Source: an uncultured bacterium
Lineage (GTDB): Bacteria; Patescibacteriota; Patescibacteriia; CAIQCM01
Length of the DNA: 64,000 nucleotides
Direction: 5' to 3'
NCBI GenBank assembly: GCA_963708045.1
Contig: OY970181.1
Coordinates: 451,740 to 515,739 of the forward strand
Shown piece by piece: positions 13,801 to 61,450 of this stretch. The notes under the pieces were generated by a model, which saw only the letters and a list, made by a program, of their open reading frames with translations, was not told the origin of the DNA and searched no databases. The number at the start of each line of letters is the position of its first letter. Within the stretch, counting starts at the first letter, position 1. Position numbers and translations under genes: made by a program.

Positions 13801-16800
13801 AAAAAATTATTTTACTTTCCTTCGCGCCTGTCGCAAGTCTGATCAGGCGAACGAATCCACCTTCTTTATTTGGGAAGGCTCTGACACCTCTGGTTATCAA
13901 CTTAAGTCGTTTGTTCTGCGTACTGGCCCCGCGACCGACACGCGAATGAGTATTGTAAGCGCGGCGGGAGATACGTCGCCCGCAAACGGACCGACTTATA
14001 TTCGCACGACTGACGCGTCCAAATGTTCGTCGGCGATTGTTAATCTAGCGGCGACTGATCCCAATTACAATCCTGATTGTCGTGAATTTATTAACGCCAA
14101 TGGCGATCGTTATTATCGTCTGCTTTCGCGAACGATTAGCTCCACCGATGAGTGCAATAATTTCCGCAAAACAATTTCTGCTGAGGCTGATTGTGTTGGC
14201 ACGGGCGGTATTTGGGATGCAAACAGTTGTACATACGAAGGTTTGTCAGCGGAAAGCATAACCTGCCAAGCGCAAGTCAACGGTTGTCGTCTTTACACCG
14301 GTAATAACGGCGCCAACACCGAAACGATTTTGTTTGATGATTTTGAAAGCGGTTCAAACGGCTGGGTCGGTGGACAAATTTCTGGCGAAGCAACGGTTGT
14401 TGGCGGGCATTCGCTTGCATCGTCAAACGTACCGCCCAACGGAACCGTTGACGCGATAGCCTATAAACCCCTTGTTGGTGTTGACGGAACAAGTATCCTT
14501 AAAAAGGGGAAATCTTACACGGTGACCGTTTGGGCAAAGGGAAAGGGCAGTTTTGGTGCAGGGATTCTTCCTAATTCTAGGAATTTTGGCGGTGGGAAAA
14601 TTTATATTTTAAATGGTGATTATTCAAATACTTTGGCTTTGACGTCCAATTGGCAAAGATATGTTTTGGGACCGGTCTTTATTGATTCGGATTTGTCTAG
14701 CGAGGCAGTTCTTAATTTTTTCTTTGCTGGGAAAAATATTAACGATATTGATTATCTTGACAATATAGAAATTACGGCAACAAATGGCCAGTTTGCGATT
14801 GTTAAGGATTCGTGGAAAACGCCGGACGTTTGCGATAAGACCGTGGACGGCGCGCCTTTGCCGCAAGCTCAGCTTGGTTGCGCCGCTTACAATAATACCG
14901 CCGGCACGATTACCAATCTTAAATCGTTTACCAGCCTTTGCCGGAACAGTGCCATTGGCTGCAAGGCATTTATTGATCGCGCGGGCACAGTCTCGCCGTT
15001 TACTGGTTCGTATAATGTTCGTTGCGAAACCGCGAGCTCGGCCGATGTTCTTGTTTCCACACCATGCGTGATTGGTACAGAAACGCTTTGCACAATTTCG
15101 GCCAATAGCTCTTTCTGTCGCTTTAACAAAGATGGAATTTTGCCCGCGAGCACGCCGGCCTTTAAGATTGTAAGCAATGTTGGCAACGCCGCCGCTCCTG
15201 ATATTTTTGCTGTCCCCGCCGACACAATACGTTACTTTGTTGCCAAAGAAGAAAATAATTGCGAACGCGCGGCCGTCGGTTGCACTGAGCTTGGCAAAAT
15301 TGAATACGGAAAAACTTCCACCTGTACGCTCGCGGGGGGAGTAGTCTGTAATGTAAAAAGTGGCTGTGCTTGCACCGGTGTTTCTGATAGTATCTTGCAA
15401 ACAAAAACCAATCCGGCAGTCGCCTGTTTTGTGGCTAAAGGTGATACCTCCTGTACTTATTCTGTTGATCCAAACAAGCCTTCATTTCCTGCAAGTTCGG
15501 TTTACCGAATTGTAAAACCCGATAATTTTGCCAAAGGCGATTTGTGTAACGCCGACGCGGTTGGTTGCGATGCATGGACGTCTGGCGCTGGCACGACTCA
15601 ATACTTTAAAAATCCGGGCGATGTTCTTTGTGAATATAAAAGCAACGTCATTGTGGCTGGAACAGAATCAAGCGGTTGGTTTAAGAAAAATTCAAACGAA
15701 CCGTGCGATCCAAAATTTGTCGTTACCGGTTCAACCTTTGGGATTCACAAAAATCTTGATGAGTACTATGCCAATTTTGCTGGCGTTTGTATAACGTCGG
15801 CGGCCGGTTGTACCGAATATCGCGACACCTTTGACCAATCGGTGCTTGGTGGTAAGTCATACTTCTTTATTAAAAACAACAAGATTACCGACGCGTCGGC
15901 AAACTGTGCCAAAGGTGCTTCCAATAAAAAAGGCTGCGTTCTCTTTAATGATCAGTCAAACCCGAGCGCGATTTGGAATGCCGCCGCGACTTATGACGCG
16001 AGCGCCAAAAATAATTTTGATTTTACGCCGCCAGTTTCTACCGCTGGAACAGCGACACCAAATGACGCCAATATTGTGCTTGAAGCCCAACTTGACCGTA
16101 CTTGTTCCGAATGGTTGGAGTGTAACAGTTGGGAAACGGTTAAAAATTCGGCAAACGGGCAAACGGTTTCGCAATGCTTGTCGCTGGGCTCGTGTATAGA
16201 AAAAGACGCGAACGGAAACTGCGCCAAGTGGCAAGACAACGGTGTTGGCACATTGCTGGCCGAAACTTATGCTAGCCGGCCGGTGGTTTTTGGTTCGCCG
16301 GACTTTACAGGTTATTCCGCCCCGGGTCTTGGATCACTCGGTACGGCGCGGCAGATTATTGCGAGTGTTGGCGCGGATTATGCTGGCAACGCGCTTTCGG
16401 TTTCCGGAAAGAATTTTGCCCAATCCTGCAAGTCATATCCCGAAGCCAGTGCGCCGTTTTCCCAAGGCTTGGCGCCAAAAGGCGGAAATGTTTGCGACTT
16501 GCCAAATGGTAATCCGACCGGAAAAACTTGCGACTGTTCGTATCGCAAAGTTTCTTACAGTGGTGGTCTTAATAAATATTTCCCACCTACAGCCGAAACC
16601 AGTGATTATCCAATTAGGGGACAGGTTTTGCTTCAGCCGGCGGAAATTCCTTCGGCGGTTTGTGTTGGTGGTGCTGTGGAAAAAGAGGGTAAAAAGTGTA
16701 ACCCGCTTGCCGCGGATCAAGAAAACGAGTGTCCCGACGGAACTTGCACTAAGATTTCAAAAATTGAGTCGGTGATTGGCGGAAAAGGATATTGCTTGGA

Positions 16801-19393
16801 GTATGACTCGTCTATTGGCAGTGGGACAATGGTGAATGGGGTAGACCCGGGCGCTTGCCTCACTTGGTTCCCAATTGATCAGCCAAACGGCAAGGATATT
16901 CTTAATCAATTTGCTTCAGCCGCTTTTGTCCCAAATCCGGGTCAGGAACGCTATTGCGCCGCCCCGCTTAAAGCCTGTGGTGCCGACCTTTGCGACAATG
17001 GCAGTGAACAATATAACTTCTGCAAAAAAATTAAAAAAACTCAATACAGCGTTCCGCCTCCGATAGGTGGATATAAAGATGGTGGCAGTTGCGCGAACAG
17101 TGTTAATTATCCAAGCGATTGCGGTGCTGAAACACCCTCGCCGTGGTGCGACAATACTGCACGGAAGAACACAAAAATAACTGATGCCGGAAGTAAGAGT
17201 ATGTGCAGTTATATGATTAGCCAGGCTTGTTCCGTGGCTGGCGCTCAAACGGTTTGTCAAAATAATATTAAAAAAGCATATCCAGATCAGTGTGGTACCG
17301 ATGCGAATTTTGATGATGTTTATGGTGGGGATAATTTTCATCAAGACTGTTTTGATATGCGCGAGTCTTGCGTTAATAGTCCGTTTTTAAGATCGACCAA
17401 CTGTCAATCGCTGATTGCCCCTGGTGCTGATTGTGACGATCTTAAACGCAAAGATACGCCAGAACAGGTTATAACCAATGAGCTAATTCAAGCGCGCATT
17501 ATTACCTGCGCCGTGCTGATTGGCGCTAGCGTTTGTTTGCCAGTAACGCCAGCACAATGCGAAAGCTTGGGCAAAATATATTGCACCAATGACAGCGAAT
17601 GCAAGGCCTCGGTGCCAAGCGCCAGCTGTCAGGCGGTTAAGGAAATTGCCGTTAATAATACTGAATATACGGCCAATGAATTTGGCAAAGGAACAGTAAA
17701 TAGTCCCGACCATAATGCTTATGACTATCCGCCAAACGCCCACTCGCTTGGTTGGTCAACAGAAATGAATAGCAACGGAAATAATAAAGCCTACACGGTT
17801 GATGGTGTTTTGCAGTTTGCCGTTAGCACGGCACCCGAAAGTGTTTCCGGTCCGTGGTCAGACTATAAGAGTAATGATGATAGCGGTAGCAAAAGACAGC
17901 CAGTTGATTTTGAAACCGGACATATCATTAGCGGTTATCCGGCCGATTTTACGGGAATGTATTATATAACCGAAAAAGAAATGGGCACGGTTAATTATGA
18001 TTTGGTTTATCCAGCGCTTCTTCTCCAAAGCCAGCTTTCGCACATTACAATTGCTGTTGCCTCTAAGCAGAACGAACTTTCTAATATTTGTTCTTCGGAT
18101 TTTTCTTGGACAAAGTTTGGTTTGGCTGTCGGTGCGGGTAATGGTTTAGGGGTCTTTATTTCGCCGGTTACGATTGTTGTTGGTTTGTTTGCTGGTTGGT
18201 TTTGGGACAGCGAATGTTCACACCTAAACCTTGGCTATACTTTTTATAGCAATAACGATGATGAGAATTTTACCAAAAATTTTGCCGTGCTAAGCACTTC
18301 AAACGGCTGGTCGGCAACGCTCGCTGGTAAAGAAGGTAACGCAACCTTTAAAGCCTTGTTTAGTAATACCACACCGGTTCGTCTTACCGGAATGCGTGTG
18401 GAATTTCTTGATAATGTCACTAAGGGCTACTTTTACATTAACGGCGCTAATTATCACCTAGAAGACCGGCGTGATGGTAAAGACCAAAACAAGGTTGACT
18501 CGCCAGCCTGCGGCCTAGCTGGCTATATTGGTTCTTCAAACCCACAAGCGGAAAAAAATATTCCAACCGCTTTTACCAATCGTCTTAATTCAATTAAAAA
18601 TTACGACGCTTCGGTTACGGCTTTTGCCGACATAAACGATGCTAGTGGCAAGCCGCCAACAATTACTTATAACAACAAAAATTGTCCCTGGGGTGTCTTT
18701 ACCTACCCCGATCCGGCCTCTATTATTTTGGATAGCACGATAAACAGCGGCACGCGCACCCAGTGTCAGTTTGGCAAGGGCGCGATCTTTAGTTCGTGGG
18801 GCGCGCTTAAGCGTTTGTATCAAAATATTTGGGATTGGCGTTTGTTTAACGAAGACCCGGTTGGTTCCGACCCAACTGGCGTTAAGCCCGGCGGCTTTGC
18901 CTTTACTCAGCCTTATAATTCCAACGGTTTGCCGATTGATAATTCTGGCACCTCGCCAGCTGACAGTGGGATTAATGGTTCAATGCCAAGTGTAAGCAAT
19001 ATAAAAATTAACGGCTCGGGTGATCCGGTTAATGCGGTTGCGCCGTTTAAGGCTGACCTAAAGTTTTATGCTGGCGCCGACGCCAACCATATGCCGCTTC
19101 GTTCCATTAGAATTGACTGGAACGACGGGACGGTTTATGATTCCGGCATTTATAATTCGTTTAAAAACCATTTGTCTAATTGCGCTGCAAACGACGCGGC
19201 GGCGTCAAGTTTTGCGCTTGCGCCATCGGCTTGCGACACAACGCCATTTTCCTTTTCACATGTTTACACTTGTGCAAGCGACAGTTGTGTTTTTACCCCA
19301 ATCATTACCGTCGGCGACAATTGGCGCATAGGGAACGCTCTTTACACCGCCGTGGCCATTGCCCCGACGATTACCCTTAAAAAAGCCGAGTAG
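10817..19393 (+). CDS. giant secreted cysteine-rich repeat protein (2858 aa) with an N-terminal signal peptide and a hydrophobic segment near the C-terminus
   Basis: Single uninterrupted ORF; signal MNYFKNKKNFLALAAILLVVLSCGFVFPKQAAA; at least 9 copies of a [AVI]GC-x-[AE]-[FWYL] module (AGCRAF, AGCDGF, VGCDEF, NGCRLY, IGCKAF, VGCTEL, VGCDAW, AGCTEY, AGCAAL); TM-like FGLAVGAGNGLGVFISPVTIVVGLFAGWFW. Confidence 0.85.
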   Translation: MNYFKNKKNFLALAAILLVVLSCGFVFPKQAAAIPVEVTVDAQATQEQIMNKAVDATMDSWKLATTQALITALDMATQTMAKNYATWLATGGASRSPLAWLKSLGKIAGDSYANAASDFLNTLAVKYTGYGLCQPVDPQITLNIKLGIFRDLQPSKPKCTWNQLSKNYDTMKNTLQTGAFLKNFSVAFQPAQNDIDNALTLHYAARNEAQKTSSLTILDATKAGGFSDLTSLISGDIKTPASMIQENLSIVEKSADDTNKHKFEATIGAVDVMKSAASGIAANAGKMFLNTLSTKLVDKYTKGGMFSLAGAICATRLAGELDVCKKNGDSGVPDTVALGANAVALADAYYTSIFTATPSTNSDYSLLADLIACPDGVARNVYNCAMDQQFANALQKQTTGGYLTVERALLQGIIPNNAIIGKGNPDDGTRECYTKGYCYTNLRKLRRADIVPVGWELAAEAIGTRQGVTLREVMSRFNDCNSSGSIDGTHPYCHLIDPDWVLKIPLERCNALVSGQTLEATGAPDRAQVCTDVSTCISEDTNGKCTGGYGYCTREKGGWSVNADSCPSQYGSCEAYAKTNVADGEVDQNGAWLSNTLDAKACTATTAGCRAFAINKSFGKWVDNKRLYITSSAPVCEASAAGCAALQDAATTSTRNLISNPSFENARADGLAVSWLGLGGAYVASDVVNAFDGKASYHVQGDGLKLGGYNYGQPTDADHYGEVVVQPKSVYTFSFYAKGSGTGTLTMKAFDSPFYGADHACDNGTNTTKPSCLQNMTADVGILPACATTGSGAVSCTIIDNFDFGTAVPKSAFGFNFPLSSGYERYTMTFATSSNTHYLDFLFNGGDFYLDAIQLELAPSATTFHVGGSDLNGTTSNIKIPPAYLKCSGDEKTDPADCKKYAAACRATEAGCDGFTPVLGGTTIPGVVNATDICPAVCVGYSTFKQEATQWEVTATDTVRFPKYFIPSTGKSCSLPDVGCDEFTNLEKVAAGGESKNYFTFLRACRKSDQANESTFFIWEGSDTSGYQLKSFVLRTGPATDTRMSIVSAAGDTSPANGPTYIRTTDASKCSSAIVNLAATDPNYNPDCREFINANGDRYYRLLSRTISSTDECNNFRKTISAEADCVGTGGIWDANSCTYEGLSAESITCQAQVNGCRLYTGNNGANTETILFDDFESGSNGWVGGQISGEATVVGGHSLASSNVPPNGTVDAIAYKPLVGVDGTSILKKGKSYTVTVWAKGKGSFGAGILPNSRNFGGGKIYILNGDYSNTLALTSNWQRYVLGPVFIDSDLSSEAVLNFFFAGKNINDIDYLDNIEITATNGQFAIVKDSWKTPDVCDKTVDGAPLPQAQLGCAAYNNTAGTITNLKSFTSLCRNSAIGCKAFIDRAGTVSPFTGSYNVRCETASSADVLVSTPCVIGTETLCTISANSSFCRFNKDGILPASTPAFKIVSNVGNAAAPDIFAVPADTIRYFVAKEENNCERAAVGCTELGKIEYGKTSTCTLAGGVVCNVKSGCACTGVSDSILQTKTNPAVACFVAKGDTSCTYSVDPNKPSFPASSVYRIVKPDNFAKGDLCNADAVGCDAWTSGAGTTQYFKNPGDVLCEYKSNVIVAGTESSGWFKKNSNEPCDPKFVVTGSTFGIHKNLDEYYANFAGVCITSAAGCTEYRDTFDQSVLGGKSYFFIKNNKITDASANCAKGASNKKGCVLFNDQSNPSAIWNAAATYDASAKNNFDFTPPVSTAGTATPNDANIVLEAQLDRTCSEWLECNSWETVKNSANGQTVSQCLSLGSCIEKDANGNCAKWQDNGVGTLLAETYASRPVVFGSPDFTGYSAPGLGSLGTARQIIASVGADYAGNALSVSGKNFAQSCKSYPEASAPFSQGLAPKGGNVCDLPNGNPTGKTCDCSYRKVSYSGGLNKYFPPTAETSDYPIRGQVLLQPAEIPSAVCVGGAVEKEGKKCNPLAADQENECPDGTCTKISKIESVIGGKGYCLEYDSSIGSGTMVNGVDPGACLTWFPIDQPNGKDILNQFASAAFVPNPGQERYCAAPLKACGADLCDNGSEQYNFCKKIKKTQYSVPPPIGGYKDGGSCANSVNYPSDCGAETPSPWCDNTARKNTKITDAGSKSMCSYMISQACSVAGAQTVCQNNIKKAYPDQCGTDANFDDVYGGDNFHQDCFDMRESCVNSPFLRSTNCQSLIAPGADCDDLKRKDTPEQVITNELIQARIITCAVLIGASVCLPVTPAQCESLGKIYCTNDSECKASVPSASCQAVKEIAVNNTEYTANEFGKGTVNSPDHNAYDYPPNAHSLGWSTEMNSNGNNKAYTVDGVLQFAVSTAPESVSGPWSDYKSNDDSGSKRQPVDFETGHIISGYPADFTGMYYITEKEMGTVNYDLVYPALLLQSQLSHITIAVASKQNELSNICSSDFSWTKFGLAVGAGNGLGVFISPVTIVVGLFAGWFWDSECSHLNLGYTFYSNNDDENFTKNFAVLSTSNGWSATLAGKEGNATFKALFSNTTPVRLTGMRVEFLDNVTKGYFYINGANYHLEDRRDGKDQNKVDSPACGLAGYIGSSNPQAEKNIPTAFTNRLNSIKNYDASVTAFADINDASGKPPTITYNNKNCPWGVFTYPDPASIILDSTINSGTRTQCQFGKGAIFSSWGALKRLYQNIWDWRLFNEDPVGSDPTGVKPGGFAFTQPYNSNGLPIDNSGTSPADSGINGSMPSVSNIKINGSGDPVNAVAPFKADLKFYAGADANHMPLRSIRIDWNDGTVYDSGIYNSFKNHLSNCAANDAAASSFALAPSACDTTPFSFSHVYTCASDSCVFTPIITVGDNWRIGNALYTAVAIAPTITLKKAE

Positions 19394-20197: not shown

Positions 20198-20561
20198 GAT
20201 GTACCTCCGTCTTGGGTTGCAAATCTACCGCCGCTTTTTGGAGCGACGAATTGAAACGATGAATTGTAAAGAGCGCTGAAACGTGTAAATGGCCGTATTA
20301 GCCAGAGTACAATTTCCCGCGTTTAGTGTACTTAAACCATACTCCTATTTCCGGTTTTTGTCAAGCCTTTTCCCCTCCTTTTTGGCTATTTCTAGTTATT
20401 TTTTTAACATTTTTTCGTCGCCTTTTAAGTTTTTTAGTTTTGTTAGTTTTAATTTAACAATAGTTATATTGCGGAGTTAATTTATAAATCTTTCTTTGCT
20501 AAAACAGCCTGATGATGATACCTTTTTAAGGTATTTACTTTTGGTTCCGTGATTAATTTAC

Positions 20562-22097
20562 ATGAAATTTATTGGCCATAAAAATAAATTTGCTATTTAT
20601 CATATGAATAGCAATAGCTTCCTAGGTGATTGCACCTCTGTTGTTTATCGTCCTAGTAAAAAAGAGATAACAAATGATCATTTATTGGTGAATCACTTAC
20701 TTGTCATTATCAAAAGTCGTGTAGATTTAAAAAAATTACTTACCATTGAAGATATCAGAAAGGCGAATATTTTTGTAAACGATAAACCTGTTTTATTACG
20801 ATTGTCTTCGGAGTGTCTGTTTAGTTCTTTTGGAGATACGCATTGCGACTGCGAGTCACAACGGATTTGTACGCTTCGAGAAATCCATAAATATGGTGAA
20901 GGGATATTTATTCATATACCCCAGGAAGCGCAGGGTAATGGTTTGTTCTATAAGGCAATGGAATTAGAGCTTCAAGTGAACGGGTTTTTGCCTGATGGAA
21001 AATTCGTTGGTCAGAAAAGCGTCACCGAAGCAGCAAAGCTTATGCTGGGTGATTTGAAAAAATTAGATAAAAGAAAGTATTTATCAATAAAAACAGTCTT
21101 TGAAAGTCTGAACCTTCGTAAATATAAGTTCGCGTTGATGAGTGAAAATCCGAAGAAGAAAAAATTTCTTGAAAAAATTTTGGGAGTTAAGATTAGTTCA
21201 ACATACAAGGTCAAGGGTCATATAACCATTGAAAATATCGGAGAATATTTGTCCAAGCTTTATTCAAAAAGTTTTGTTTTGTCCGACGAAGAGCTAAAGG
21301 ATATATACGGTATCATTAATTCAAGTAAAGAAATTCCAGAGCGAGCCGCCTCTGTATTGCGTTTCATTAGCGAGGATATAAAACTAGGAAAACATTTTAA
21401 TGCTAATGGCGAATTATTGGAACATTTGATCGGGCTACTCAACATTAAGAAAAAACGCGAGTTGATTCAGGGTCTCGATCTTTTTCAAGACTCGGAAGCT
21501 TATGAGGAATACCACACGGAACTACGCATTGATACTGATGGCTTGGAAAAACTGTTCAAGTCTGGGATATTGATAAGTGATGAATTGTTGCGTTATGAAG
21601 AGAACTTTTTTTACGACCTGCCTTACTTCTCATTAATTCCTTGCCGGACTCTTAAAATACGAAAAGCGTTCAAATTGAATGACCTCAAACATCCATTACA
21701 ATGCGAGTTAATCTATAAAATCCCAATCAAAGACAAAAATAATTTGATCAAGTGTATTGGGATTGATAATGAAGATATTATCAATTTAATTGATGTTTCC
21801 CTTAAGGATTATAATGTTCATGCTTTGCCTGTTTTTACGCATAAGGTAGTAAATAAATCTAAAAACATAAAAACTTTGATCAAACGGTATTCACATGACT
21901 TGCGGGTCTTGAGCCTGATGGGAGAAAAGAACGAGGTTGATATTTTAATGAACGAAATTAATAAACTACTAAAGACTTCGGAAATCAACATACTTTCTGA
22001 TCAGAGCCATGCAAATGCTAAGACGCCTACTAACTTCAATTGGAATAAATTAGCGCTTGAGGAAACTAATTTCTATAAAAAATATTTCATTGGTTAA
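20562..22097 (+). CDS. hypothetical protein with a GTP cyclohydrolase II (RibA)-like N-terminal domain; first gene of the AT-rich island
   Basis: GDTHCDCESQRICTLREIHKYGEGIFIHIPQEAQGNGLFYKAMELELQ parallels the RibA zinc/catalytic region (CDCG-Q...EGRG...GL..K..AY.LQ); C-terminal about 350 aa unassigned; AT-rich codon usage. Confidence 0.5.
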   Translation: MKFIGHKNKFAIYHMNSNSFLGDCTSVVYRPSKKEITNDHLLVNHLLVIIKSRVDLKKLLTIEDIRKANIFVNDKPVLLRLSSECLFSSFGDTHCDCESQRICTLREIHKYGEGIFIHIPQEAQGNGLFYKAMELELQVNGFLPDGKFVGQKSVTEAAKLMLGDLKKLDKRKYLSIKTVFESLNLRKYKFALMSENPKKKKFLEKILGVKISSTYKVKGHITIENIGEYLSKLYSKSFVLSDEELKDIYGIINSSKEIPERAASVLRFISEDIKLGKHFNANGELLEHLIGLLNIKKKRELIQGLDLFQDSEAYEEYHTELRIDTDGLEKLFKSGILISDELLRYEENFFYDLPYFSLIPCRTLKIRKAFKLNDLKHPLQCELIYKIPIKDKNNLIKCIGIDNEDIINLIDVSLKDYNVHALPVFTHKVVNKSKNIKTLIKRYSHDLRVLSLMGEKNEVDILMNEINKLLKTSEINILSDQSHANAKTPTNFNWNKLALEETNFYKKYFIG

Positions 22098-22101
22098 AAT
22101 T

Positions 22102-22740
22102 ATGCCTGTTGAAAGAGAAATAAAATACTTTTTTCCGTTATCAAGATTTGGAGAGCTGCGCTCTATTTTAAGCATGTTTGAATATACGGGGACAACTCAT
22201 GAGATGACGTCAATGTTTGATAATCCTAACCCCGACTTAAGCTTTTATCACCCGAAAGTTGATGGTCGGTTAAGATTAAGGGTGGCGAAATGTTTGGATG
22301 GTGATACACAAAACAAAACAACTGGTTTGTTATCTTGGAAACAGCGAATTCCCGAACATGCCCACTCGGCGATTCGTCATGAGCACGAGGTGGAATGTGA
22401 GATTTCTGATAATTCAATTGCAAATATGCAAACTATTCTTCAGGATATTTTAAAATGTCCGCTAATTTCGTCGTATGAACGAGAGCGATCTCATTATTAT
22501 GACGATGGTTTAAAAATAACTCTTGACCGTTTTCCTTATGGGTTAATGTTGGAAATTGAATTTGCTAACGAAACGATTGGTCACAGCGCACTGGAAAAGA
22601 TCTTGGGAAAAATTGGCCTAAAAGAAGATGACGCTTCAAGATTATCCTGTGATGATATGTATAAGCGCCTATGTAAGTTGCAGAATAAACAAATTAAGGA
22701 GCATATCCACTTTGGTGACAAAGATATACCTTTAATATAA
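22102..22740 (+). CDS. CYTH-domain (triphosphate tunnel metalloenzyme) protein
   Basis: N-terminal ExExK (VEREIKYFF), RLRLR, HEHEVECEI (ExExE), ITLDRFPYGLMLEIEF (D..G..LEIE); start at ATG 22102 rather than the overlapping track start. Confidence 0.65.
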   Translation: MPVEREIKYFFPLSRFGELRSILSMFEYTGTTHEMTSMFDNPNPDLSFYHPKVDGRLRLRVAKCLDGDTQNKTTGLLSWKQRIPEHAHSAIRHEHEVECEISDNSIANMQTILQDILKCPLISSYERERSHYYDDGLKITLDRFPYGLMLEIEFANETIGHSALEKILGKIGLKEDDASRLSCDDMYKRLCKLQNKQIKEHIHFGDKDIPLI

Positions 22741-22745
22741 TTTAA

Positions 22746-23397
22746 ATGGCCACTTTTAATAAAAATAAATTGATCGTCTTTGATCTAGACAAAACCATAA
22801 CTGCTGGTTATAGCTGGGCGCGCTTGAATTTTGGCCTAGGTATGACGCGAGACGAAGATATTAGTTTGTCTGAAGAATATTATCAAAAAAACAAATTCAC
22901 AGAATGGACTTCTCGGGTATTAGATATTTATAAAACGCGAAGTATTCCCACTAAGAAAAATGTTCAAAATATATTGAAGGACTTTGAATATACATCTGGC
23001 GCCGAAGAGTGTATAAAAAAATTAAAAAAAATGAATTTTAAAATTGCTATTATTTCTTCTGCGCCAGATGTTTTTGTTAAATTAGTTAGTAATAAACTAA
23101 AAATCAAGAATTTTCGTTTTAATAATACACTAATCTTTGGTGAAAACAATTTTTTAATTAATATTTCAACGGATGGGGAGGATAAGTATACAAAATTTGC
23201 ACATTTGAAAGACCTCTGCCATTTAAGAAAAAGTGGATATGGAAGAAACAGTTATTGTGGGTGACGGGGATAATGATGAATTGTTGTTTAAAGCCTCAAA
23301 ATATTCAATCACCTTCAATGATAGTAAGTTTAAAGATGTGGTTTGGAAGACAATCGACAGCCTTGCCGACCTACCTAAAATTTTGAAGAATAGATAG
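22746..23397 (+). pseudogene. HAD-superfamily phosphatase interrupted by a 1-nt frameshift in an A5 run (about 23222-23230)
   Basis: Motif I FDLDKTIT in frame 0 ends ...LRKSGYGRNSYCG*; the conserved motif IV ...VGDGDNDELLF continues in the +1 frame to a stop at 23397; removing one A from agaaaaagt restores a single ORF. Confidence 0.6.
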
Positions 23398-23527
23398 TTG
23401 TTTCTGATCCTGTAGTAATTTGTTAACGAAATAATTTGGACAAGCAGAGATCTAATCAGCGGCGAGCAACAAAACTCGCCGTCGTTTCTTATAGTTTAAT
23501 AATGAATATGCGCAGTTTTTAATATTA

Positions 23528-23588
23528 GTTTTGCATAATTTTTAGCCCTCCCATCTTTCCACGGTCGTGGAAAGATGGGAGGCGAGGG
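23528..23588 (+). repeat. 62-bp hairpin repeat family B, copy 1 (downstream of the PaaX-like gene)
   Basis: ttgcataatttttagccctcccatctttccacggtcgtggaaagatgggaggcgaggg; 13-bp palindromic stem cccatctttccac / gtggaaagatggg. Confidence 0.75.
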
Positions 23589-23609
23589 AAAAAGTGTTGC
23601 AATTAAAAA

Positions 23610-24179
23610 TTATTCATTTGGATTTAGTCCCAAGCCAAAATTAAATGCTAATTTATCATCGCCGTTGAATCTGTTGCAGACAAAATATATAACGCCGCGT
23701 CTAATATGATAATTTGTTTTAGCAAGTTCAATAATGTCTTCGCATGGGAATGGATATATCCAGACGCTCATTTGCAATTGAACCAATCCTAGGTTTTTAA
23801 AAAACGTTCTTATGTTGTCGCGAGAATATCTTTGTCGTTCAGGAACATCAAATGATATTATTCGCCACTTATTATCCCAACGTTTTTGTTGTTTAATTTT
23901 GATATTTTTCATCTCATATCGTAAAAGTTCTGCCTTACCTTTCGCGGTAAGTGAATAATAGGCGATTCCTTTTGTTCTAATTAATTTTATCCATCCGCGT
24001 TCGCGCAAACGACGTGTTGTATAATTTATCCGCCAGTGTGATTTAAAATCAGTTCGTTTAATTGAACAAGGATCAATAGCCTCGTCAATAAATGTTAAAA
24101 ATTTCTTTAAAGTCACGACTCCGTGATCTCCGATAATTTTTAATGCAGCGAATGTATTTTTTGAATATTTGTTTTGCAT
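23610..24179 (-). CDS. PaaX-like transcriptional regulator (short form: wHTH + PaaX middle-domain motif)
   Basis: WDNKWRIISFDVPERQRYSRDNIRTFFKNLGLVQLQMSVWIYP matches the PaaX signature W.G.W..v.yDiPe..R..Rd.lR..L...GF..Lq.SvW..P; N-terminal RERGWI winged-helix-like; start taken at the second Met. Confidence 0.5.
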   Translation of the reverse strand: MQNKYSKNTFAALKIIGDHGVVTLKKFLTFIDEAIDPCSIKRTDFKSHWRINYTTRRLRERGWIKLIRTKGIAYYSLTAKGKAELLRYEMKNIKIKQQKRWDNKWRIISFDVPERQRYSRDNIRTFFKNLGLVQLQMSVWIYPFPCEDIIELAKTNYHIRRGVIYFVCNRFNGDDKLAFNFGLGLNPNE

Positions 24180-24232
24180 AATTTTTAGCCCTCCCATCTT
24201 TCAACGGTCGTGGAAAGATGGGATGGGGTAGA
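24171..24232 (+). repeat. 62-bp hairpin repeat family B, copy 2 (overlaps the PaaX-like gene start)
   Basis: ttgcataatttttagccctcccatctttcaacggtcgtggaaagatgggatggggtag; direct repeat of copy 1 about 640 bp away with 3 mismatches. Confidence 0.75.
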
Positions 24233-24484
24233 CGAGATAAAAAATAAAGAAAGAAAATGTTAGTAAATTTTTGTTTATAATATTTTTTTAATATATCTGC
24301 TGAATGTAATTTTTGTGTTATTTGAAATTGTTTTTTAATTTTAAAAATACGAAATTTATTTAAGTTATCCCGACGGAGAAACAAGTTTCTCCGTCGGGAT
24401 TTTGCGGTGCGCGGTTGGCGCGGGCGGGCAAACCAAGTCATTTGAAGTAATTGGTCAGATTGTTTTTTGGTTTGCGGTGGCGCG

Positions 24485-25087
24485 TTATATGCCGAGAGCG
24501 GCGACGGCAACGGGGGCGGTGAGGGCGGCAAGAATTGCGGCAACTGACCCTGAAACGCCGGCGGCAATAAGACTGTTCTTGACCGACGTTTTCATCCCAA
24601 TCTTGGGATTGTCAAAGCATCCCTTGAGGCAAAAACCGTAGGCAATGACGCTTTTGTTTATTACCCCGATGCACGGCGTTCGGCTTTTAAACCAACCGGC
24701 AAGATGCAGTTCAACAAGCGTGATTGTTGTGCGTTCGTTCGTTACTTCCAAAACAAGATGCGGCGCCCATTGGTTGATACAGCCGGCCATGTACTCGCTT
24801 GAAACGTAAATCTTGATTTTGAATTTACCAACGGAAACAGTTGGCCCTTCATCCGAAGAAAACGTAAGTTCAAAAGCGTTTTCTTCGGTTATGAGCGGGG
24901 GACTGACTGCAATTAATGCTTCGTATTCGGTAATGTTGGCGGCGGTCGCACCGTTTTCAAAAACAACATTTACGTTGTCTTCATCGCTTCCAACGGACGT
25001 CGCTCGTCCCAGTGTTTCCTTGCTGCAGGCGGTTTGTGAAAAAAGCGCTATGAAAAAAATCGGCAATACCGTTTTTCTTGTCTTCAT
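24485..25087 (-). CDS. hypothetical lipoprotein
   Basis: MKTRKTVLPIFFIALFSQTAC signal/lipobox; C-terminal hydrophobic tail. Confidence 0.55.
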   Translation of the reverse strand: MKTRKTVLPIFFIALFSQTACSKETLGRATSVGSDEDNVNVVFENGATAANITEYEALIAVSPPLITEENAFELTFSSDEGPTVSVGKFKIKIYVSSEYMAGCINQWAPHLVLEVTNERTTITLVELHLAGWFKSRTPCIGVINKSVIAYGFCLKGCFDNPKIGMKTSVKNSLIAAGVSGSVAAILAALTAPVAVAALGI

Positions 25088-26932: not shown

Positions 26933-27063
26933 CAATTTCGCAAACTTCCTTTTCAGCCGCTCCAATGCTATCGGGGCGGCTGATTTTCTTATATTTTTGC
27001 GGATAAATTTGGCCTATGAGCAAAATATTCTTTCTGCTATACTATATTAAATTACTGCGCACA

Positions 27064-29610
27064 ATGAAAAAGTTTTTAAACAATATAAAATTTTGGCTGG
27101 TCAGCCTTGGGGCGGTGACTCTGTCTTTTGCTTTTGCGACCGCGGCTAAGGCTGCAGGAGAAACCGTTACCTCTCAGGTTATTTCCGAAGGTATTGGTTG
27201 GGCGCTAAATAAATTAGTTATTTCTCCGCTCGTTGGCGTGCTTGGTAATGTCGCGCTAATTTTAATAGATTTTTTGGTTAAAGTCGTAAGTTATACCGGC
27301 TATATGACGTCGCCAGCGGTGGTGAACGGTTGGATTGTTGTGCGCGACGTTGCCAATATGTTCTTTGTGGCAATGTTTCTCGTCATCGCCATTGGTACTA
27401 TTGTTAACCCGGGAAAATTTCAGGGAATGCGCGCCATTGTCCGCCTGCTTCTTTATGCCATCTTTGTAAACTTTAGCAAAACCATCGCTGGACTTTGTAT
27501 TGACGCTTCCAACATTGTAATGCTCACTTTTGTTAATGGTTTTAAAGCCGCGGCTGGTGGTAATTTTGTGGACGCCCTTGGAATGCGCAGTTTGGTGACA
27601 ATAAACCCGAACGAAGCCGCTCCTTTAACCGGCCTTATTGGCGCGCAACTAGTTGGTTTAATAATGATGGTCATCATCGTTGTTTTGATCGGCATAATTT
27701 TGATCGCAATGGTAATGCGTATGATAACGCTGTGGTTTTTAATTGTCGTCTCACCGCTCGCTTTTGCAATGGGCGGAACAGAAATGACCAAGCCGCGTTA
27801 TGCCGAATGGTGGAAGCGTTTTTCCGCCCAGCTCACAACTGGTCCGCTGGTTGCCTTTTTCTTGTGGCTAACTTTGGCAACGGTTCAGCAACAGCCGGTC
27901 GGTGCCGATCTTGCTGGTACTGGCCCGGGCAGTATTTCGGGCGCGCAAACTGCTGGTGCTAAAGAAATCACTTCTTGCACCAGCGAATTTTGCAAACAGT
28001 CACAAATAATGCGTTTCGTGATCGCTGCGCTAATGCTCTTGGGCGGTCTTATGTTTGCCAAAGAATTTGAAGGTGTGGGTGGCGAGCTCGCTGGCGCGGC
28101 GTTAAACAAAGGAAAAGGCGCGATGAACTATGTTGGTAAGCGCGCACTCAAACTTGGCGCAATCGGCGTCGGCGTGGCGGCGGCGCCGGTTTTGGGCGGA
28201 GCTATTGCTGGTGGTTATTTGATGTCAAGAACCGAAACCGGAAAAGGTATTTTGGGTCGGGCGGGAACTGGCATAGGACGCGGAATATCGGCGGCGCAAA
28301 ATAAAAATATCGCCGCTCGGTGGGCAATGCGACTTACGGGAATTGGTGCGGCTGGCCGTTTAGCAACTTCGCTTGGCAATAAACAATTAGCCGCCGCCGA
28401 TAAAACGGCGCGTGACAGGATGCAGTATTACAGTCAAGATCAGGTTGAAGAAGTTGCTTCCAGTAGCCTTTCTAGTTACCCAGAAAAACGTGCCGCCGCG
28501 TTGCGTATTGCGAAGGATAAAGATTATCGCAATGCCAATATTAATGATGCTGATCCCGAAAAACGCGCCAAGGCCGAACGTCGGCTTAAAATATTGCAAC
28601 AGTCAATTAAAACGCTTTCCGAAATTAACGGCGACAAAGATGCGGATGATGCGATTAAGGAAGTTAAGGAAGTTCGTCCCGAAGCCTTGGCAATGGGGCC
28701 GAAACCGGTTAATTTTGCCGACTTTGGTCACGGGTTTAATATTCGCGAAGGCGCGTCAAAACTTCGCCTTGACCTAATGTCGGAAGCGAATAGAAATGAA
28801 TTTTTGCACAACCTTCGTCCTGACGATCTTAAAGAATTGTATAAGCGCACCAGCGCCGACGGCAAACGGGCGATTGATGCGTATAGAATGGGCTCGCTTC
28901 CAACAAGGCCGGAATTGGATACGGCAGTTAAGAGTGGTCAACTCACCGCAGATGATATAGCTGATCTACCCGCAGAACGTTATGTTCCAGGGAGGACGGA
29001 TGGCTCTACCGAAACCAATATTGATTTAGCAAGAAGTGTTTTGGAAAACGGCAAACCCGGGCAGATACGCGCATTTTTGTCGCGCGAGGATGCTCATCTT
29101 TTTGGCGAGGCTATGCGCGATGCTTTGCGGGGGAATTTAAATTTTTCAACTGGTGCTGGTTTTGATGGTCATACTGGAACAATGACCGACGACAATATGC
29201 GTTTGGCCGAGGGTGCGATTATCGCCAATATAGGAGCTAACGCACAAAGCCGGGAAAAGCTTTTGAAAGACACATACCGCGTTAAAGATGATGGAACTTT
29301 TGTTGATCCGAGAATGGAGTCGTCTTTTGTCGCGGCGTTAAGCTCGCCGCGAAAAGTTGACATGCTTATGAGTTTGCCGGAAAGTGCTTATAATGACGAA
29401 ACAAAAAAAATTACTCAGCACATAATAAGCAGTTTACAAGATCAAGATCTTGTTGATTTTGCTAGTCGTGCCACGACCGCCGAAGACGATCGCAGATTAA
29501 ATTGGTTGTTAAAGACGGTAGCTGCCGCTGGTAATGCTGGTAATGCAAGAGCGGCCTCTCTTGCACAAAATGCAAGCATACATCCCGACCTTGGGCATCA
29601 TATGTCGTAA
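27064..29610 (+). CDS. TrbL/VirB6-like type IV secretion inner-membrane protein with a long hydrophilic C-terminal extension
   Basis: Signal MKKFLNNIKFWLVSLGAVTLSFAFATAAKAAG, then 5-6 TM helices in the first about 290 aa; head of a cluster with a PrgI/VirB3-like protein and VirB4; track start 27016 is probably too early. Confidence 0.55.
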   Translation: MKKFLNNIKFWLVSLGAVTLSFAFATAAKAAGETVTSQVISEGIGWALNKLVISPLVGVLGNVALILIDFLVKVVSYTGYMTSPAVVNGWIVVRDVANMFFVAMFLVIAIGTIVNPGKFQGMRAIVRLLLYAIFVNFSKTIAGLCIDASNIVMLTFVNGFKAAAGGNFVDALGMRSLVTINPNEAAPLTGLIGAQLVGLIMMVIIVVLIGIILIAMVMRMITLWFLIVVSPLAFAMGGTEMTKPRYAEWWKRFSAQLTTGPLVAFFLWLTLATVQQQPVGADLAGTGPGSISGAQTAGAKEITSCTSEFCKQSQIMRFVIAALMLLGGLMFAKEFEGVGGELAGAALNKGKGAMNYVGKRALKLGAIGVGVAAAPVLGGAIAGGYLMSRTETGKGILGRAGTGIGRGISAAQNKNIAARWAMRLTGIGAAGRLATSLGNKQLAAADKTARDRMQYYSQDQVEEVASSSLSSYPEKRAAALRIAKDKDYRNANINDADPEKRAKAERRLKILQQSIKTLSEINGDKDADDAIKEVKEVRPEALAMGPKPVNFADFGHGFNIREGASKLRLDLMSEANRNEFLHNLRPDDLKELYKRTSADGKRAIDAYRMGSLPTRPELDTAVKSGQLTADDIADLPAERYVPGRTDGSTETNIDLARSVLENGKPGQIRAFLSREDAHLFGEAMRDALRGNLNFSTGAGFDGHTGTMTDDNMRLAEGAIIANIGANAQSREKLLKDTYRVKDDGTFVDPRMESSFVAALSSPRKVDMLMSLPESAYNDETKKITQHIISSLQDQDLVDFASRATTAEDDRRLNWLLKTVAAAGNAGNARAASLAQNASIHPDLGHHMS

Positions 29611-61402: not shown

Positions 61403-61450
61403 AAAACCTCCCATCTTGGCGCGGCCGCGTCAAGATGGGAGGCGGGGGAG
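61403..61450 (+). repeat. hairpin repeat family B, variant copy 3
   Basis: aaaacctcccatcttggcgcggccgcgtcaagatgggaggcgggggagg; same cctcccatctt / aagatgggagg stem base as the 23.5 and 24.2 kb copies, with a different loop. Confidence 0.6.

What the first reader, a model, noticed from the sequence alone, without database searches (positions are those of the whole stretch)
20280..24400. AT-rich island encoding a GTP-cyclohydrolase-II-like protein, a CYTH triphosphate-tunnel enzyme, a frameshifted HAD phosphatase and a PaaX-like regulator bracketed by 62-bp hairpin direct repeats
Base composition drops sharply between about 20.3 and 24.4 kb. The 511-aa protein carries a RibA-like zinc/catalytic segment (HCDCESQ...EGIFIHIPQEAQGNGLFYKAMELELQ) followed by about 350 aa of unknown sequence. 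The next gene has the full CYTH signature (ExExK, RLR, ExExE, D..G..LEIE). A HAD phosphatase follows. Together these form a compact nucleotide or triphosphate-processing cassette with no obvious pathway context, which could be a novel nucleotide-derived metabolite or signalling system. The adjacent PaaX-like regulator gene sits between two near-identical 62-bp elements at 23528-23588 and 24171-24232, each containing a 13-bp-stem palindrome; the same stem recurs at 61403-61450.
Basis: partly seen in the sequence, partly recalled or inferred. Interest (0 to 1): 0.7.

Follow-up and report, generated by a model that had tools for sequence, protein, structure and literature searches.

The report
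Conserved GTP-cyclohydrolase-II-like plus triphosphate-tunnel gene pair
The AT-rich island holds a rare, uncharacterised but conserved enzyme pair (a zinc GTP-cyclohydrolase-II-like protein fused to a degenerate triphosphate-tunnel domain, followed by an intact triphosphate-tunnel enzyme), here joined by a frameshifted phosphatase; the neighbouring PaaX-like regulator is a separate unit, and its flanking palindromes are conserved in its homologues.

Summary
GC falls from about 0.45-0.52 to 0.30-0.37 between 20.25 and 24.4 kb, and all four genes and the roughly 65-nt repeats are present.

The island contains two unrelated units.

(1) An operon of three genes.
- A (20562-22097) has a GTP-cyclohydrolase-II fold with the zinc cysteines and the catalytic Arg kept, but the catalytic Tyr is an invariant Leu.
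- B (22102-22740) is a bona fide CYTH enzyme with the full charged-residue set.
- The third gene is a HAD-IB phosphatase broken by one extra A.

A is directly followed by B in nearly every one of about 40 loci from Patescibacteria, Clostridia, Bacilli and others. The third partner varies and is largely mutually exclusive: HAD, creatininase-family amidohydrolase, SIS, FolE2, Qng1-like, or an unknown 278-aa protein. No paper or curated family describes the pair. Most likely it is a GTP-derived ring-opening and phosphate-processing pathway. It is not riboflavin synthesis.

(2) The PaaX-like gene belongs to a conserved "200-aa lipoprotein + PaaX-like" pair. Its homologues elsewhere are also bracketed by two near-identical palindromes that covary between genomes.

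Verdict: a new variant of known enzyme kinds, with unknown chemistry. Interest is moderate to high.

The parts
20198..20561 (+). AT-rich intergenic leader and promoter region upstream of gene A. The left edge of the composition drop lies here.
   Evidence: GC 0.31. No Rfam match even at E<=1. Promoter-like sites are no more frequent than in shuffles.
20562..22097 (+). Gene A, 511 aa (the start could instead be Met15 at 20604). Three parts: a GCH-II-like zinc domain (residues about 1-235), a helical linker (about 240-305), and a degenerate CYTH/TTM-like beta-barrel (about 310-511, i.e. 21489-22094).
22102..22740 (+). Gene B, 212 aa. A CYTH / triphosphate tunnel metalloenzyme that starts 4 nt after the stop of A.
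   Evidence: AlphaFold pLDDT 96. Foldseek top hits are SaTTM, PH1819, AtTTM3 and CyaB, E 1e-10 to 1e-8. Invariant E5 E7 R57 R59 R61 K81 R83 E95 E97 E99 R130 E152 E154.
22746..23397 (+). HAD-IB phosphatase gene, interrupted by a +1 frameshift. Motif I (FDLDKT) lies in the first frame and motif IV (GDGDND) in the second.
   Evidence: TIGR01488 52.8 bits against a cut-off of 45. tblastn of intact homologues switches frame between 23219 and 23236.
23228..23232 (+). A5 homopolymer, the most likely site of the single-base insertion that breaks the HAD gene.
   Evidence: Sequence. Removing one A restores ...RKVDMEETVIVGDGDND..., which matches the homologues.
23459..23492 (+). Intrinsic-terminator-like hairpin plus T-rich tail that ends the A-B-HAD operon.
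23516..23582 (-). Downstream copy of the repeat: a perfect 17-bp-stem palindrome (23547-23582) plus a copy of the Shine-Dalgarno sequence, the ATG and two codons of the PaaX-like gene, followed by a stop codon (MQN*).
   Evidence: Fold -32.7 kcal/mol, z -6.5.
23610..24179 (-). PaaX-like gene, 189 aa: a winged-helix domain plus a Cas2-like PaaX_M domain. The PaaX C-terminal domain is absent.
   Evidence: PF20803 70.5 bits. TIGR02277 only 37 bits against a cut-off of 264. The public gene call is 189 aa.
24159..24226 (-). Upstream copy of the repeat: the palindrome (24189-24226) contains the GGGAGG Shine-Dalgarno sequence in its 3' arm, 10 nt before the ATG at 24179.
24367..24400 (-). 16-bp hairpin, the terminator of the 200-aa gene. 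Its sequence is conserved in L052. It marks the right edge of the AT-rich stretch.
24485..25087 (-). 200-aa predicted lipoprotein with a C-terminal hydrophobic helix. It is the conserved upstream partner of the PaaX-like gene and has normal GC (0.48).
   Evidence: The same pair occurs in L052-L056 and in the contig of P0092. 49% identity to the L052 protein.
61407..61442 (-). Third palindrome of the same 36-nt size with the same outer 11 bp per arm. On the minus strand it is followed by an ATG after 11 nt and a 14-codon ORF.

Best explanation
The island contains two independent units.

Unit 1 (20.2-23.5 kb) is a horizontally mobile, AT-rich operon built around a conserved two-gene module.

Protein A. 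Its N-terminal domain has a GTP-cyclohydrolase-II-type active site: a zinc site (Cys85/95/97) and the Arg (R171) that in RibA attacks the alpha-phosphate and expels pyrophosphate. The Tyr needed by RibA to complete the reaction is an invariant Leu.

Inference for A: it binds GTP or a very similar purine NTP, releases pyrophosphate, and opens the imidazole ring. It probably stops at the formamido-pyrimidine ribotide (2-amino-5-formylamino-6-ribosylamino-4(3H)-pyrimidinone 5'-phosphate, AFRPP), or makes a related product. It probably does not make the riboflavin precursor.

Protein B is a catalytically complete triphosphate tunnel enzyme. Inference: it hydrolyses a tri- or pyrophosphate, either the PPi leaving group or the phosphate chain of the substrate or product.

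The degenerate tunnel domain at the C-terminus of A keeps one invariant Arg. Inference: it binds a phosphate chain or docks B.

A lineage-specific third enzyme tailors the ribotide:
- a HAD-IB phosphatase (5'-dephosphorylation) here;
- a creatininase/ArfB/BrbF-type amidohydrolase (deformylation) in other Patescibacteria;
- a SIS isomerase, a Qng1-like N-glycosidase or FolE2 in Firmicutes.

In this genome the phosphatase reads as frameshifted, which could be a sequencing error or recent decay.

Shown: folds, conserved residues, gene order and distribution. Inferred: substrate, product and the roles of the two tunnel domains.

Unit 2 (23.5-25.1 kb) is a native 'lipoprotein + PaaX-like wHTH/Cas2-like' gene pair. 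The regulator gene is bracketed by two copies of a palindrome. These are most likely binding sites for its own product (autoregulation, possibly by looping). The upstream copy also sequesters the ribosome-binding site if it is transcribed.
For: Folds and residues:
- GCH II fold and residues.
- Tyr105(Ec)->Leu135 is invariant in 31 sequences from several phyla.
- Second CYTH-like fold in A.
- B has the CYTH fold and a full invariant charged set.

Gene order and distribution:
- B directly follows A in about 35 of about 40 loci, with 0-15 nt between the genes.
- The third partners are largely mutually exclusive and are all small-molecule or nucleotide enzymes. Counts are loci: HAD 4, creatininase family 6, SIS 5, FolE2 7, Q_salvage 10.

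Literature:
- A creatininase-family enzyme (BrbF), like archaeal ArfB, deformylates exactly the formylamino-pyrimidine ribotide, and its bacterial producer is still unknown (PMC9478397).
- HAD phosphatases dephosphorylate pyrimidine ribitol-phosphates in riboflavin synthesis (PMC7017516).

Rarity and mobility:
- The C-terminal domain has 44 representatives among 1.84 billion proteins, all in this architecture.
- The cassette is more AT-rich than its flanks in the window, L001 and L002. It sits inside a tRNA cluster in L004 and at a synteny break relative to L052.

Unit 2:
- The same gene pair and the same palindrome arrangement occur in L052 and L055, with different but internally matching sequences.
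- The 17-bp stem is 97.5% paired, with 9 pairs changed on both sides.
Against: - No biochemical data exist for any member. Substrate and product are inferred from motifs and neighbours only.
- The link between loss of the Tyr and a formyl-retaining product rests on my recollection of work on Streptomyces coelicolor GCH II paralogues (Spoonamore and Bandarian 2008). I could not retrieve it here.
- The creatininase-family neighbours score better against the MftE and creatininase models than against ArfB, and all are below cut-off.
- FolE2 and Qng1-like neighbours point towards pterin or queuosine chemistry, which the model does not explain directly.
- The most frequent partner (278 aa, 24 loci) and the 370-aa partner have no recognisable family.
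- Why two tunnel domains are needed is unexplained.
- The model of A has low confidence exactly at the zinc loop (residues 86-94).
- For unit 2, palindromic covariation cannot distinguish a protein operator from an RNA or DNA hairpin.
Confidence: 0.45

Rival explanations
1. The module acts in 7-deazaguanine/queuosine salvage or in pterin metabolism rather than on GTP itself. For example, A and B could strip or hydrolyse the triphosphate of the FolE2 product dihydroneopterin triphosphate, or process a queuosine nucleotide upstream of the Qng1-like glycosidase. HAD would remove the last phosphate.
For: FolE2 (PF02649, 173 bits) lies upstream of A in 7 loci. A Q_salvage/Qng1-like protein (PF10343, 165 bits) lies directly after B in 10 loci. 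Both tunnel enzymes and the PPi-releasing half-reaction of GCH II suit removal of a triphosphate.
Against: None of these partners is present in the window or in any Patescibacteria locus. Those loci carry HAD or creatininase-family genes instead. The invariant zinc site suggests ring chemistry rather than phosphate removal alone. No preQ1, THF or other riboswitch was found upstream in 19 loci.
Confidence: 0.2
2. It is a nucleotide second-messenger system. B works as a class-IV (CyaB-type) nucleotide cyclase, and A makes or degrades the signal.
For: B resembles CyaB-type adenylyl cyclases (Foldseek E 1.5e-8 to 3n0z and 2fjt). JGI annotates homologues as 'adenylate cyclase class IV'. Regulators sometimes sit nearby: TrmB in L002, a histidine kinase in L001 and PaaX-like here.
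Against: The best structural matches are triphosphatases, not cyclases. The recurrent partners are metabolic hydrolases and isomerases. No effector or receptor domain recurs. The adjacent regulators are not conserved.
Confidence: 0.1
3. It is ordinary riboflavin biosynthesis: a RibA plus the pathway phosphatase.
For: Pfam and NCBIfam recognise a GCH II domain. HAD phosphatases are the pathway phosphatases.
Against: Scores are far below the RibA equivalog cut-offs (52.5 against 205.9; 55.1 against 148). The catalytic Tyr and Arg94 are replaced by invariant Leu and Gln. No ribD, ribB, ribH or ribE was noted among the neighbours annotated in the window or the 40 loci. The fused tunnel domain and the obligatory CYTH partner have no role in that pathway.
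Confidence: 0.05
4. It is an anti-phage defence or toxin module carried on a genomic island.
For: Low-GC island, variable genomic contexts, a tRNA-cluster location in L004 and a YafQ toxin gene near L001.
Against: A, B and HAD get no PADLOC hit. No homologue is found in phage or plasmid collections beyond canonical RibA. The recurrent neighbours are metabolic enzymes.
Confidence: 0.05
5. For the PaaX-like unit: the flanking palindromes are the ends of a small mobile or recombining cassette, or REP-like elements serviced by the Cas2-like domain, rather than operators.
For: The gene is bracketed by directly repeated hairpin-plus-tail units in three genomes. The two copies within a genome are 90-100% identical, while genomes differ. 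A third related hairpin lies elsewhere in the window. The gene is more AT-rich than its host in all four genomes. The protein has a Cas2-like fold domain.
Against: The gene keeps the same neighbour (the 200-aa gene) in six contigs, which is not the behaviour of a mobile gene. No transposase or recombinase is present. Only three copies occur in 64 kb. The metagenome scan for the motif found only unrelated hairpins.
Confidence: 0.15

Closest known systems
GTP cyclohydrolase II (RibA, PF00925; E. coli structure 2bz0)
   Different: Tyr105 is Leu and Arg94 is Gln, both invariant. There is a 10-residue insertion after the LQ motif. A linker and a CYTH-like domain are fused to it. There is no rib-gene context, and scores are far below the RibA equivalog cut-offs.
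Two-step GTP ring opening: archaeal GTP cyclohydrolase III (ArfA) plus the formamidase ArfB, and the bacterial creatininase-family formamidase BrbF
   Same: The logic is a cyclohydrolase that stops at the formylamino-pyrimidine ribotide, followed by a separate creatininase-fold deformylase. A creatininase-family gene adjoins A-B in 6 loci.
   Different: ArfA is not a GCH II homologue. The creatininase-family neighbours here are below the ArfB cut-off. In the window the partner is a HAD phosphatase instead. No downstream riboflavin or F420 genes are present.
UTP cyclohydrolase (GCH II homologue, PDB 7eev)
   Different: No significant sequence match was found. The domain additions differ, and no urc-type neighbours are present.
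Triphosphate tunnel metalloenzymes / CYTH (SaTTM 7nsd, AtTTM3 5a5y, YgiF 5a60, CyaB 2fjt, ThTPase)
   Same: B has the eight-stranded tunnel, the N-terminal ExExK, and Arg/Lys and Glu ladders. The C-terminal domain of A has the same fold.
   Different: B has an extra conserved C-terminal S-x-x-SCDD-x-Y-x-x-LC helix. It is always coupled to a GCH-II-like partner. The copy in A has lost nearly all tunnel residues and has no detectable sequence similarity to B.
PaaX (phenylacetate catabolon repressor) and its palindromic operators
   Same: A winged-helix domain plus a Cas2-like middle domain (PF20803, 70.5 bits). The associated DNA is palindromic.
   Different: Only 189 aa, with no PaaX C-terminal domain. 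There are no paa genes. Palindromes lie on both sides of the gene, and the upstream one covers the ribosome-binding site.

Membership tests
GTP cyclohydrolase II (RibA, EC 3.5.4.25) | Match to the PF00925 domain above the gathering score, and the GCH II fold | tested here: met
GTP cyclohydrolase II (RibA, EC 3.5.4.25) | Three zinc-ligand cysteines (E. coli C54, C65, C67) | tested here: met
   C85, C95 and C97 are invariant in 31 sequences.
GTP cyclohydrolase II (RibA, EC 3.5.4.25) | Arg128 (E. coli), which displaces pyrophosphate | tested here: met
   R171 in DKRKY aligns with DERDF and is invariant. The role of Arg128 is from my knowledge of Ren et al. 2005.
GTP cyclohydrolase II (RibA, EC 3.5.4.25) | Tyr105 (E. 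coli), required for the complete ring-opening and deformylation reaction | tested here: not met
   It aligns with Leu135, which is invariant across phyla.
GTP cyclohydrolase II (RibA, EC 3.5.4.25) | Score above the curated RibA equivalog cut-off | tested here: not met
   TIGR00505 52.5 against 205.85. NF001591 55.1 against 148.
GTP cyclohydrolase II (RibA, EC 3.5.4.25) | Conversion of GTP to DARPP, formate and PPi | not testable with these tools
   Needs an enzyme assay.
CYTH / triphosphate tunnel metalloenzyme (PF01928): gene B | Eight-stranded antiparallel beta-barrel tunnel | tested here: met
   AlphaFold pLDDT 96. Foldseek E 9e-11, TM 0.80 to SaTTM 7nsd.
CYTH / triphosphate tunnel metalloenzyme (PF01928): gene B | N-terminal ExExK motif and conserved basic and acidic tunnel residues | tested here: met
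   E5-x-E7-x-K9 (K or R in homologues). R57 R59 R61 K81 R83 E95 E97 E99 R130 E152 E154 are invariant.
CYTH / triphosphate tunnel metalloenzyme (PF01928): gene B | Significant match to the Pfam CYTH model | tested here: inconclusive
   The window protein has no hit at E<=0.1. 15 of 33 homologues hit, best 1.1e-6.
CYTH / triphosphate tunnel metalloenzyme: C-terminal domain of A | Tunnel fold | tested here: met
CYTH / triphosphate tunnel metalloenzyme: C-terminal domain of A | ExExK and the charged catalytic ladder | tested here: not met
   Only R367 is invariant. E346 and K441 are conserved in at least 90% of sequences. There is no profile similarity to the B family.
HAD-IB phosphatase | Family model above cut-off and motif I DxDxT | tested here: met
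   TIGR01488 52.8 against 45. FDLDKT at residues 11-16.
HAD-IB phosphatase | Intact reading frame that includes motif IV (GDGxND) | tested here: not met
   Motif IV lies in the +1 frame after the A5 run at 23228-23232.
PaaX transcriptional repressor | PaaX middle (Cas2-like) domain | tested here: met
   PF20803 70.5 bits against 24.
PaaX transcriptional repressor | Full-length PaaX (equivalog score, C-terminal domain, paa operon context) | tested here: not met
   TIGR02277 37.3 against 264.55. The protein is 189 aa, and no paa genes were seen nearby.
Known anti-phage defence systems (PADLOC) | Any component model hit for A, B or HAD | tested here: not met
   No hits. Only weak Cas2 matches for the PaaX-like protein.

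The most novel reading that the evidence does not exclude
The A-B pair defines a previously unrecognised GTP-derived small-molecule pathway shared by host-dependent Patescibacteria and gut Firmicutes. A would be a GCH-II-fold enzyme that has become a 'bacterial GTP cyclohydrolase III' making a formamidopyrimidine ribotide. It would work as a complex with a dedicated triphosphate tunnel enzyme. Lineage-specific tailoring (phosphatase, formamidase, isomerase, Qng1-like glycosidase, FolE2) would lead to an unknown pterin, deazapurine or pyrimidine product or salvage route.
Probability: 0.3. Interest if true: 0.75.

Novelty: new variant of a known kind. Interest (0 to 1): 0.6.

Why it matters
GCH II and CYTH are well-studied superfamilies, yet this fixed pairing has no annotation or literature. 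The pairing is a GCH-II-like enzyme with a changed catalytic residue, fused to a dead tunnel domain and always followed by a live tunnel enzyme.

It occurs in organisms with minimal metabolism (Patescibacteria, Mycoplasma-like Bacilli) and in gut Clostridia. In such organisms every retained nucleotide or cofactor pathway is informative about dependence on the host.

Its neighbours link it to unresolved questions:
- which bacterial enzyme makes the substrate of creatininase-type formamidases (PMC9478397);
- what bacterial Qng1-like proteins do;
- how pterin or deazapurine precursors are handled by auxotrophs.

Two cultured carriers make it testable: Fusibacter sp. JL216-2 and Claveliimonas monacensis DSM 108991.

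The palindrome-bracketed PaaX-like gene is a separate, small but clean example of a regulator co-evolving with its flanking sites.

Tried and rejected
- Exact look-up of the window's gene A on contigs returned nothing, although an identical protein is on record from a 1.19-Mb contig.
- The PDB sequence search with B and with its profile found nothing. Only fold comparison worked.
- PADLOC found nothing for A, B or HAD.
- Plasmid and phage collections held only canonical RibA, or nothing.
- Literature searches found nothing relevant. The term pairs were GCH II + CYTH, GCH II + Patescibacteria, DUF2419 + GCH II, queuosine salvage + triphosphate tunnel, Tyr105, SCO6655, and PaaX + Cas2-like.
- No riboswitch was found upstream of the operon: Rfam gathering scans on 18 loci, plus a permissive scan of the window leader.
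- The 278-aa partner has no Pfam, NCBIfam or PDB relative.
- Profile-profile comparison of the A C-terminal domain with B found no sequence similarity.
- The metagenome scan for the hairpin motif returned five unrelated hairpins, so it is not a widespread element.
- Rejected: canonical RibA and riboflavin synthesis; a defence system; the PaaX-like gene as regulator of the cassette.

Full report
**1. Observation**

The composition drop is real. Between 20250 and 24499, 500-nt windows have GC 0.30-0.37, against 0.44-0.54 on either side. The island is 0.337 and the rest of the window 0.447.

The ORFs are as described:
- A, 20562-22097 (+), 511 aa.
- B, best start at the ATG at 22102, ending at 22740 (+).
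- A HAD gene split into 22746-23264 and 23233-23397.
- A PaaX-like gene on the minus strand, 23610-24179. Public gene callers also give 189 aa.

A 65-nt direct repeat lies at 23516-23580 and 24159-24223, 95% identical. Each copy contains a 17-18-bp-stem palindrome.

The claim that 'the same stem' recurs near 61.4 kb is only partly right. A 30-nt core search with up to 3 mismatches finds nothing there. However, 61407-61442 is a 36-nt palindrome with the same outer 11 bp per arm and a different, still complementary inner stem.

**2. Gene A**

Pfam GTP_cyclohydro2 matches residues 66-211 at 44.8 bits (cut-off 23.3). All NCBIfam RibA models match far below their cut-offs.

The profile alignment to E. 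coli RibA gives these correspondences:

| E. coli RibA | Gene A | Conservation |
|---|---|---|
| Cys54/65/67 | Cys85/95/97 | invariant |
| Arg128 | Arg171 | invariant |
| Lys101 | Lys131 | invariant |
| Tyr105 | Leu135 | invariant |
| Arg94 | Gln124 | conserved in at least 90% of sequences |

Conservation was measured in 31 full-length family members from several phyla.

These cover the eight strands of residues about 310-455 and the C-terminal helix.

So the 'unknown' part of A is a helical linker plus a second tunnel-fold domain. That domain has lost the CYTH signature: only Arg367 is invariant, and it has no profile similarity to B.

A profile of this C-terminal region finds only 44 representatives among 1.84 billion proteins. 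Nearly all are in about 505-530-aa proteins at the same position, or are fragments. The architecture is therefore rare and fixed.

**3. Gene B**

The window protein has no Pfam hit, but 15 of 33 homologues hit CYTH.

The model (pLDDT 96) matches these proteins at Foldseek E 1e-10 to 1e-8:
- S. acidocaldarius TTM (E 9e-11, TM 0.80).
- PH1819.
- AtTTM3.
- CyaB.

E5-x-E7-x-K9, R57/R59/R61, K81/R83, E95/E97/E99, R130 and E152/E154 are invariant in 35 sequences. B therefore looks catalytically competent.

**4. HAD gene**

It matches HAD-IB above cut-off. Intact homologues align in one frame up to about 23219 and in the +1 frame from about 23236. One extra A in the A5 run at 23228-23232 explains this.

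I cannot tell a homopolymer sequencing error from a real mutation.

**5. Conservation of the cassette**

The word-index search found 29 A homologues, all about 500 aa, from Patescibacteria-type metagenomes. It found 58 B homologues.

Gene maps show three arrangements:
- A-B-HAD in L001, L002 and L004.
- Creatininase-A-B in L005 and L011.
- SIS-A-B plus a 274-aa protein in L007 and L009.

A scan of species-representative genomes added 35 loci. These come from:
- Patescibacteria: Saccharimonadia, WWE3 and Nomurabacteria.
- Clostridia.
- Bacilli.
- MAGs labelled Mycoplasma and Muribaculaceae.
- Two cultured organisms: Claveliimonas monacensis DSM 108991 and Fusibacter sp. JL216-2.

HMM searches of all ORFs show B immediately downstream of A wherever sequence is available. 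The exceptions are L014, where the genes are divergent, and two short-A loci.

Clustering of the neighbours gives these recurrent partners:

| Partner | Loci | Annotation |
|---|---|---|
| 278-aa protein | 24 | unknown family |
| Q_salvage / Qng1-like | 10 | PF10343, 165 bits |
| FolE2 | 7 | PF02649, 173 bits |
| Creatininase family | 6 | PF02633, 115-129 bits |
| 370-aa protein | 5 | unknown family |
| SIS | 5 | |
| HAD | 4 | includes the window |

The HAD, creatininase, SIS and FolE2 partners never occur together. None of the other partners is encoded elsewhere in the 64-kb window.

**6. Mobility**

- The cassette is more AT-rich than its flanks in the window, L001 and L002.
- In L004 it sits between tRNA genes.
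- Its flanks differ in every genome.
- Relative to L052, the closest available relative of this stretch, synteny holds through the 864/495/200-aa and PaaX-like genes. It breaks exactly where the cassette begins.
- No member is on a known plasmid or phage.

**7. Mechanism**

Shown: folds, invariant residues, gene coupling and partners.

Inferred, for A: it performs the GCH-II-type first half-reaction on GTP or a close analogue, namely PPi release via Arg171 and zinc-assisted attack on C8. It lacks the Tyr. From my knowledge of Ren et al. 2005, Kaiser et al. 2002 and Spoonamore and Bandarian 2008, that residue distinguishes full GCH II activity from enzymes that stop at the formamido intermediate or only make GMP. 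I could not retrieve these papers here.

The alternative partners fit a ribotide intermediate:
- Creatininase-fold enzymes (ArfB, BrbF) deformylate exactly that intermediate. The authors of PMC9478397 state that the bacterial enzyme producing it is unknown.
- HAD enzymes dephosphorylate the related riboflavin intermediate (PMC7017516).
- A Qng1-type enzyme would cleave a ribosyl-5'-phosphate bond.
- A SIS domain could isomerise the sugar phosphate.

B presumably hydrolyses the released PPi or another tri- or pyrophosphate. The dead tunnel domain of A may bind a phosphate chain or B.

I put about 0.75 on 'a conserved nucleotide-derived metabolic module starting from a purine NTP'. I put about 0.3 on the specific formamidopyrimidine product.

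Rivals (pterin or queuosine processing, signalling, riboflavin, defence) are weighed in the Rival explanations section.

No riboswitch that could name the ligand was found.

**8. The PaaX-like unit**

The protein has the PaaX_M (Cas2-like) domain at 70.5 bits. It is far below the PaaX equivalog cut-off and lacks the C-terminal domain.

Only eight close homologues were found. In six contigs the gene follows the same 200-aa gene, as it does in the window, and the cassette is absent there. It is therefore not the cassette's regulator.

Homologues are bracketed in the same way:
- L052 has two 48-nt repeats, 90% identical, that contain CCTCCCACAAATGCTCG-GT-CGAGCATTTGTGGGAGG.
- L055 has two identical 38-nt copies of AACATCCCAAAAATTTGCGATCGCAAATTTTTGGGATG.

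In each case one copy ends about 10 nt before the ATG and includes the Shine-Dalgarno sequence. The other copy follows the stop codon.

Aligning seven copies gives a 17-bp stem that is 97.5% paired. Nine pairs have changed on both sides, and the outer C-x-TCCCA and central CG-NN-CG are invariant. The hairpins fold at -23 to -33 kcal/mol (z -4.3 to -6.5).

The gene is more AT-rich than its host in all four genomes. This explains why the AT-rich stretch extends over it.

The most likely reading is a pair of operators for the gene's own product. An RNA or DNA hairpin role or a recombining cassette cannot be excluded.

**9. Verdict**

The enzymes belong to known superfamilies, so it is a new variant of a known kind rather than a new kind. 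The chemistry is unknown and directly testable.

Noticed in passing
L052:3942-3989 and 4595-4642; L055:3080-3117 and 3813-3850; window 23547-23582 and 24189-24226: Homologues of the PaaX-like gene in other genomes are each bracketed by two near-identical palindromes. Their inner stems differ between genomes but stay complementary (17-bp stem, 9 pairs changed on both sides). The upstream copy always contains the ribosome-binding site.
   Followed up: yes
window 61407-61442 (minus strand): Third palindrome of the same size with the same outer arms. It lies between two plus-strand genes and is followed on the minus strand by an ATG after 11 nt and a 14-codon ORF (MKKLMADNQEGYRP). It could be a remnant or a further binding site.
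   Followed up: partly
window 23516-23545 (minus strand): The downstream repeat copy retains the Shine-Dalgarno sequence, the ATG and two codons of the PaaX-like gene, then a stop codon (MQN*). The repeat therefore duplicates the 5' end of the gene and is more than a hairpin.
   Followed up: partly
window 22992-23071: Imperfect 36-nt inverted repeat (75% complementary) inside the HAD coding sequence. The reverse strand even gives a weak HAD-like translation in tblastn. It is probably coincidental.
   Followed up: no
L004:5626-5898 and 8865-8947: The A-B-HAD cassette of this Patescibacteria contig sits directly between tRNA genes, three upstream and one downstream. This suggests insertion into a tRNA cluster.
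   Followed up: no
L016, L017, L018 (about 299-330-aa versions of A): Short forms of A lack the C-terminal tunnel domain. One is in cultured Claveliimonas monacensis, where B and a creatininase-family gene still follow. Two are in Saccharimonadia, where no B was detected next to them.
   Followed up: partly
L035:3880-5562: In Fusibacter sp. JL216-2 an IS66-family transposase is inserted between the methyltransferase-FolE2-278-aa genes and A-B.
   Followed up: no
L024:6358-6441; L005:5092-5150; L026:6449-7022: Known RNA elements lie next to, but not upstream of, the module. A SAM riboswitch follows B directly and controls the next gene. An MDR-NUDIX motif lies before a NUDIX gene 1.4 kb downstream of the pair. 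There is also a ROOL RNA.
   Followed up: no
window 10817-19393 and 32703-34574: A 2858-aa secreted-looking giant protein lies just left of the island. A TraG/VirB4-like P-loop ATPase lies further right. Several large ORFs between them have no Pfam family (27016-29610, 29618-31426).
   Followed up: no
window 24367-24400 and L052:3896-3928: The terminator hairpin after the 200-aa gene is conserved in sequence (ATCCCGACGGA...TC(C/G)TCGGGAT) between the window and a relative with only about 50% protein identity.
   Followed up: no
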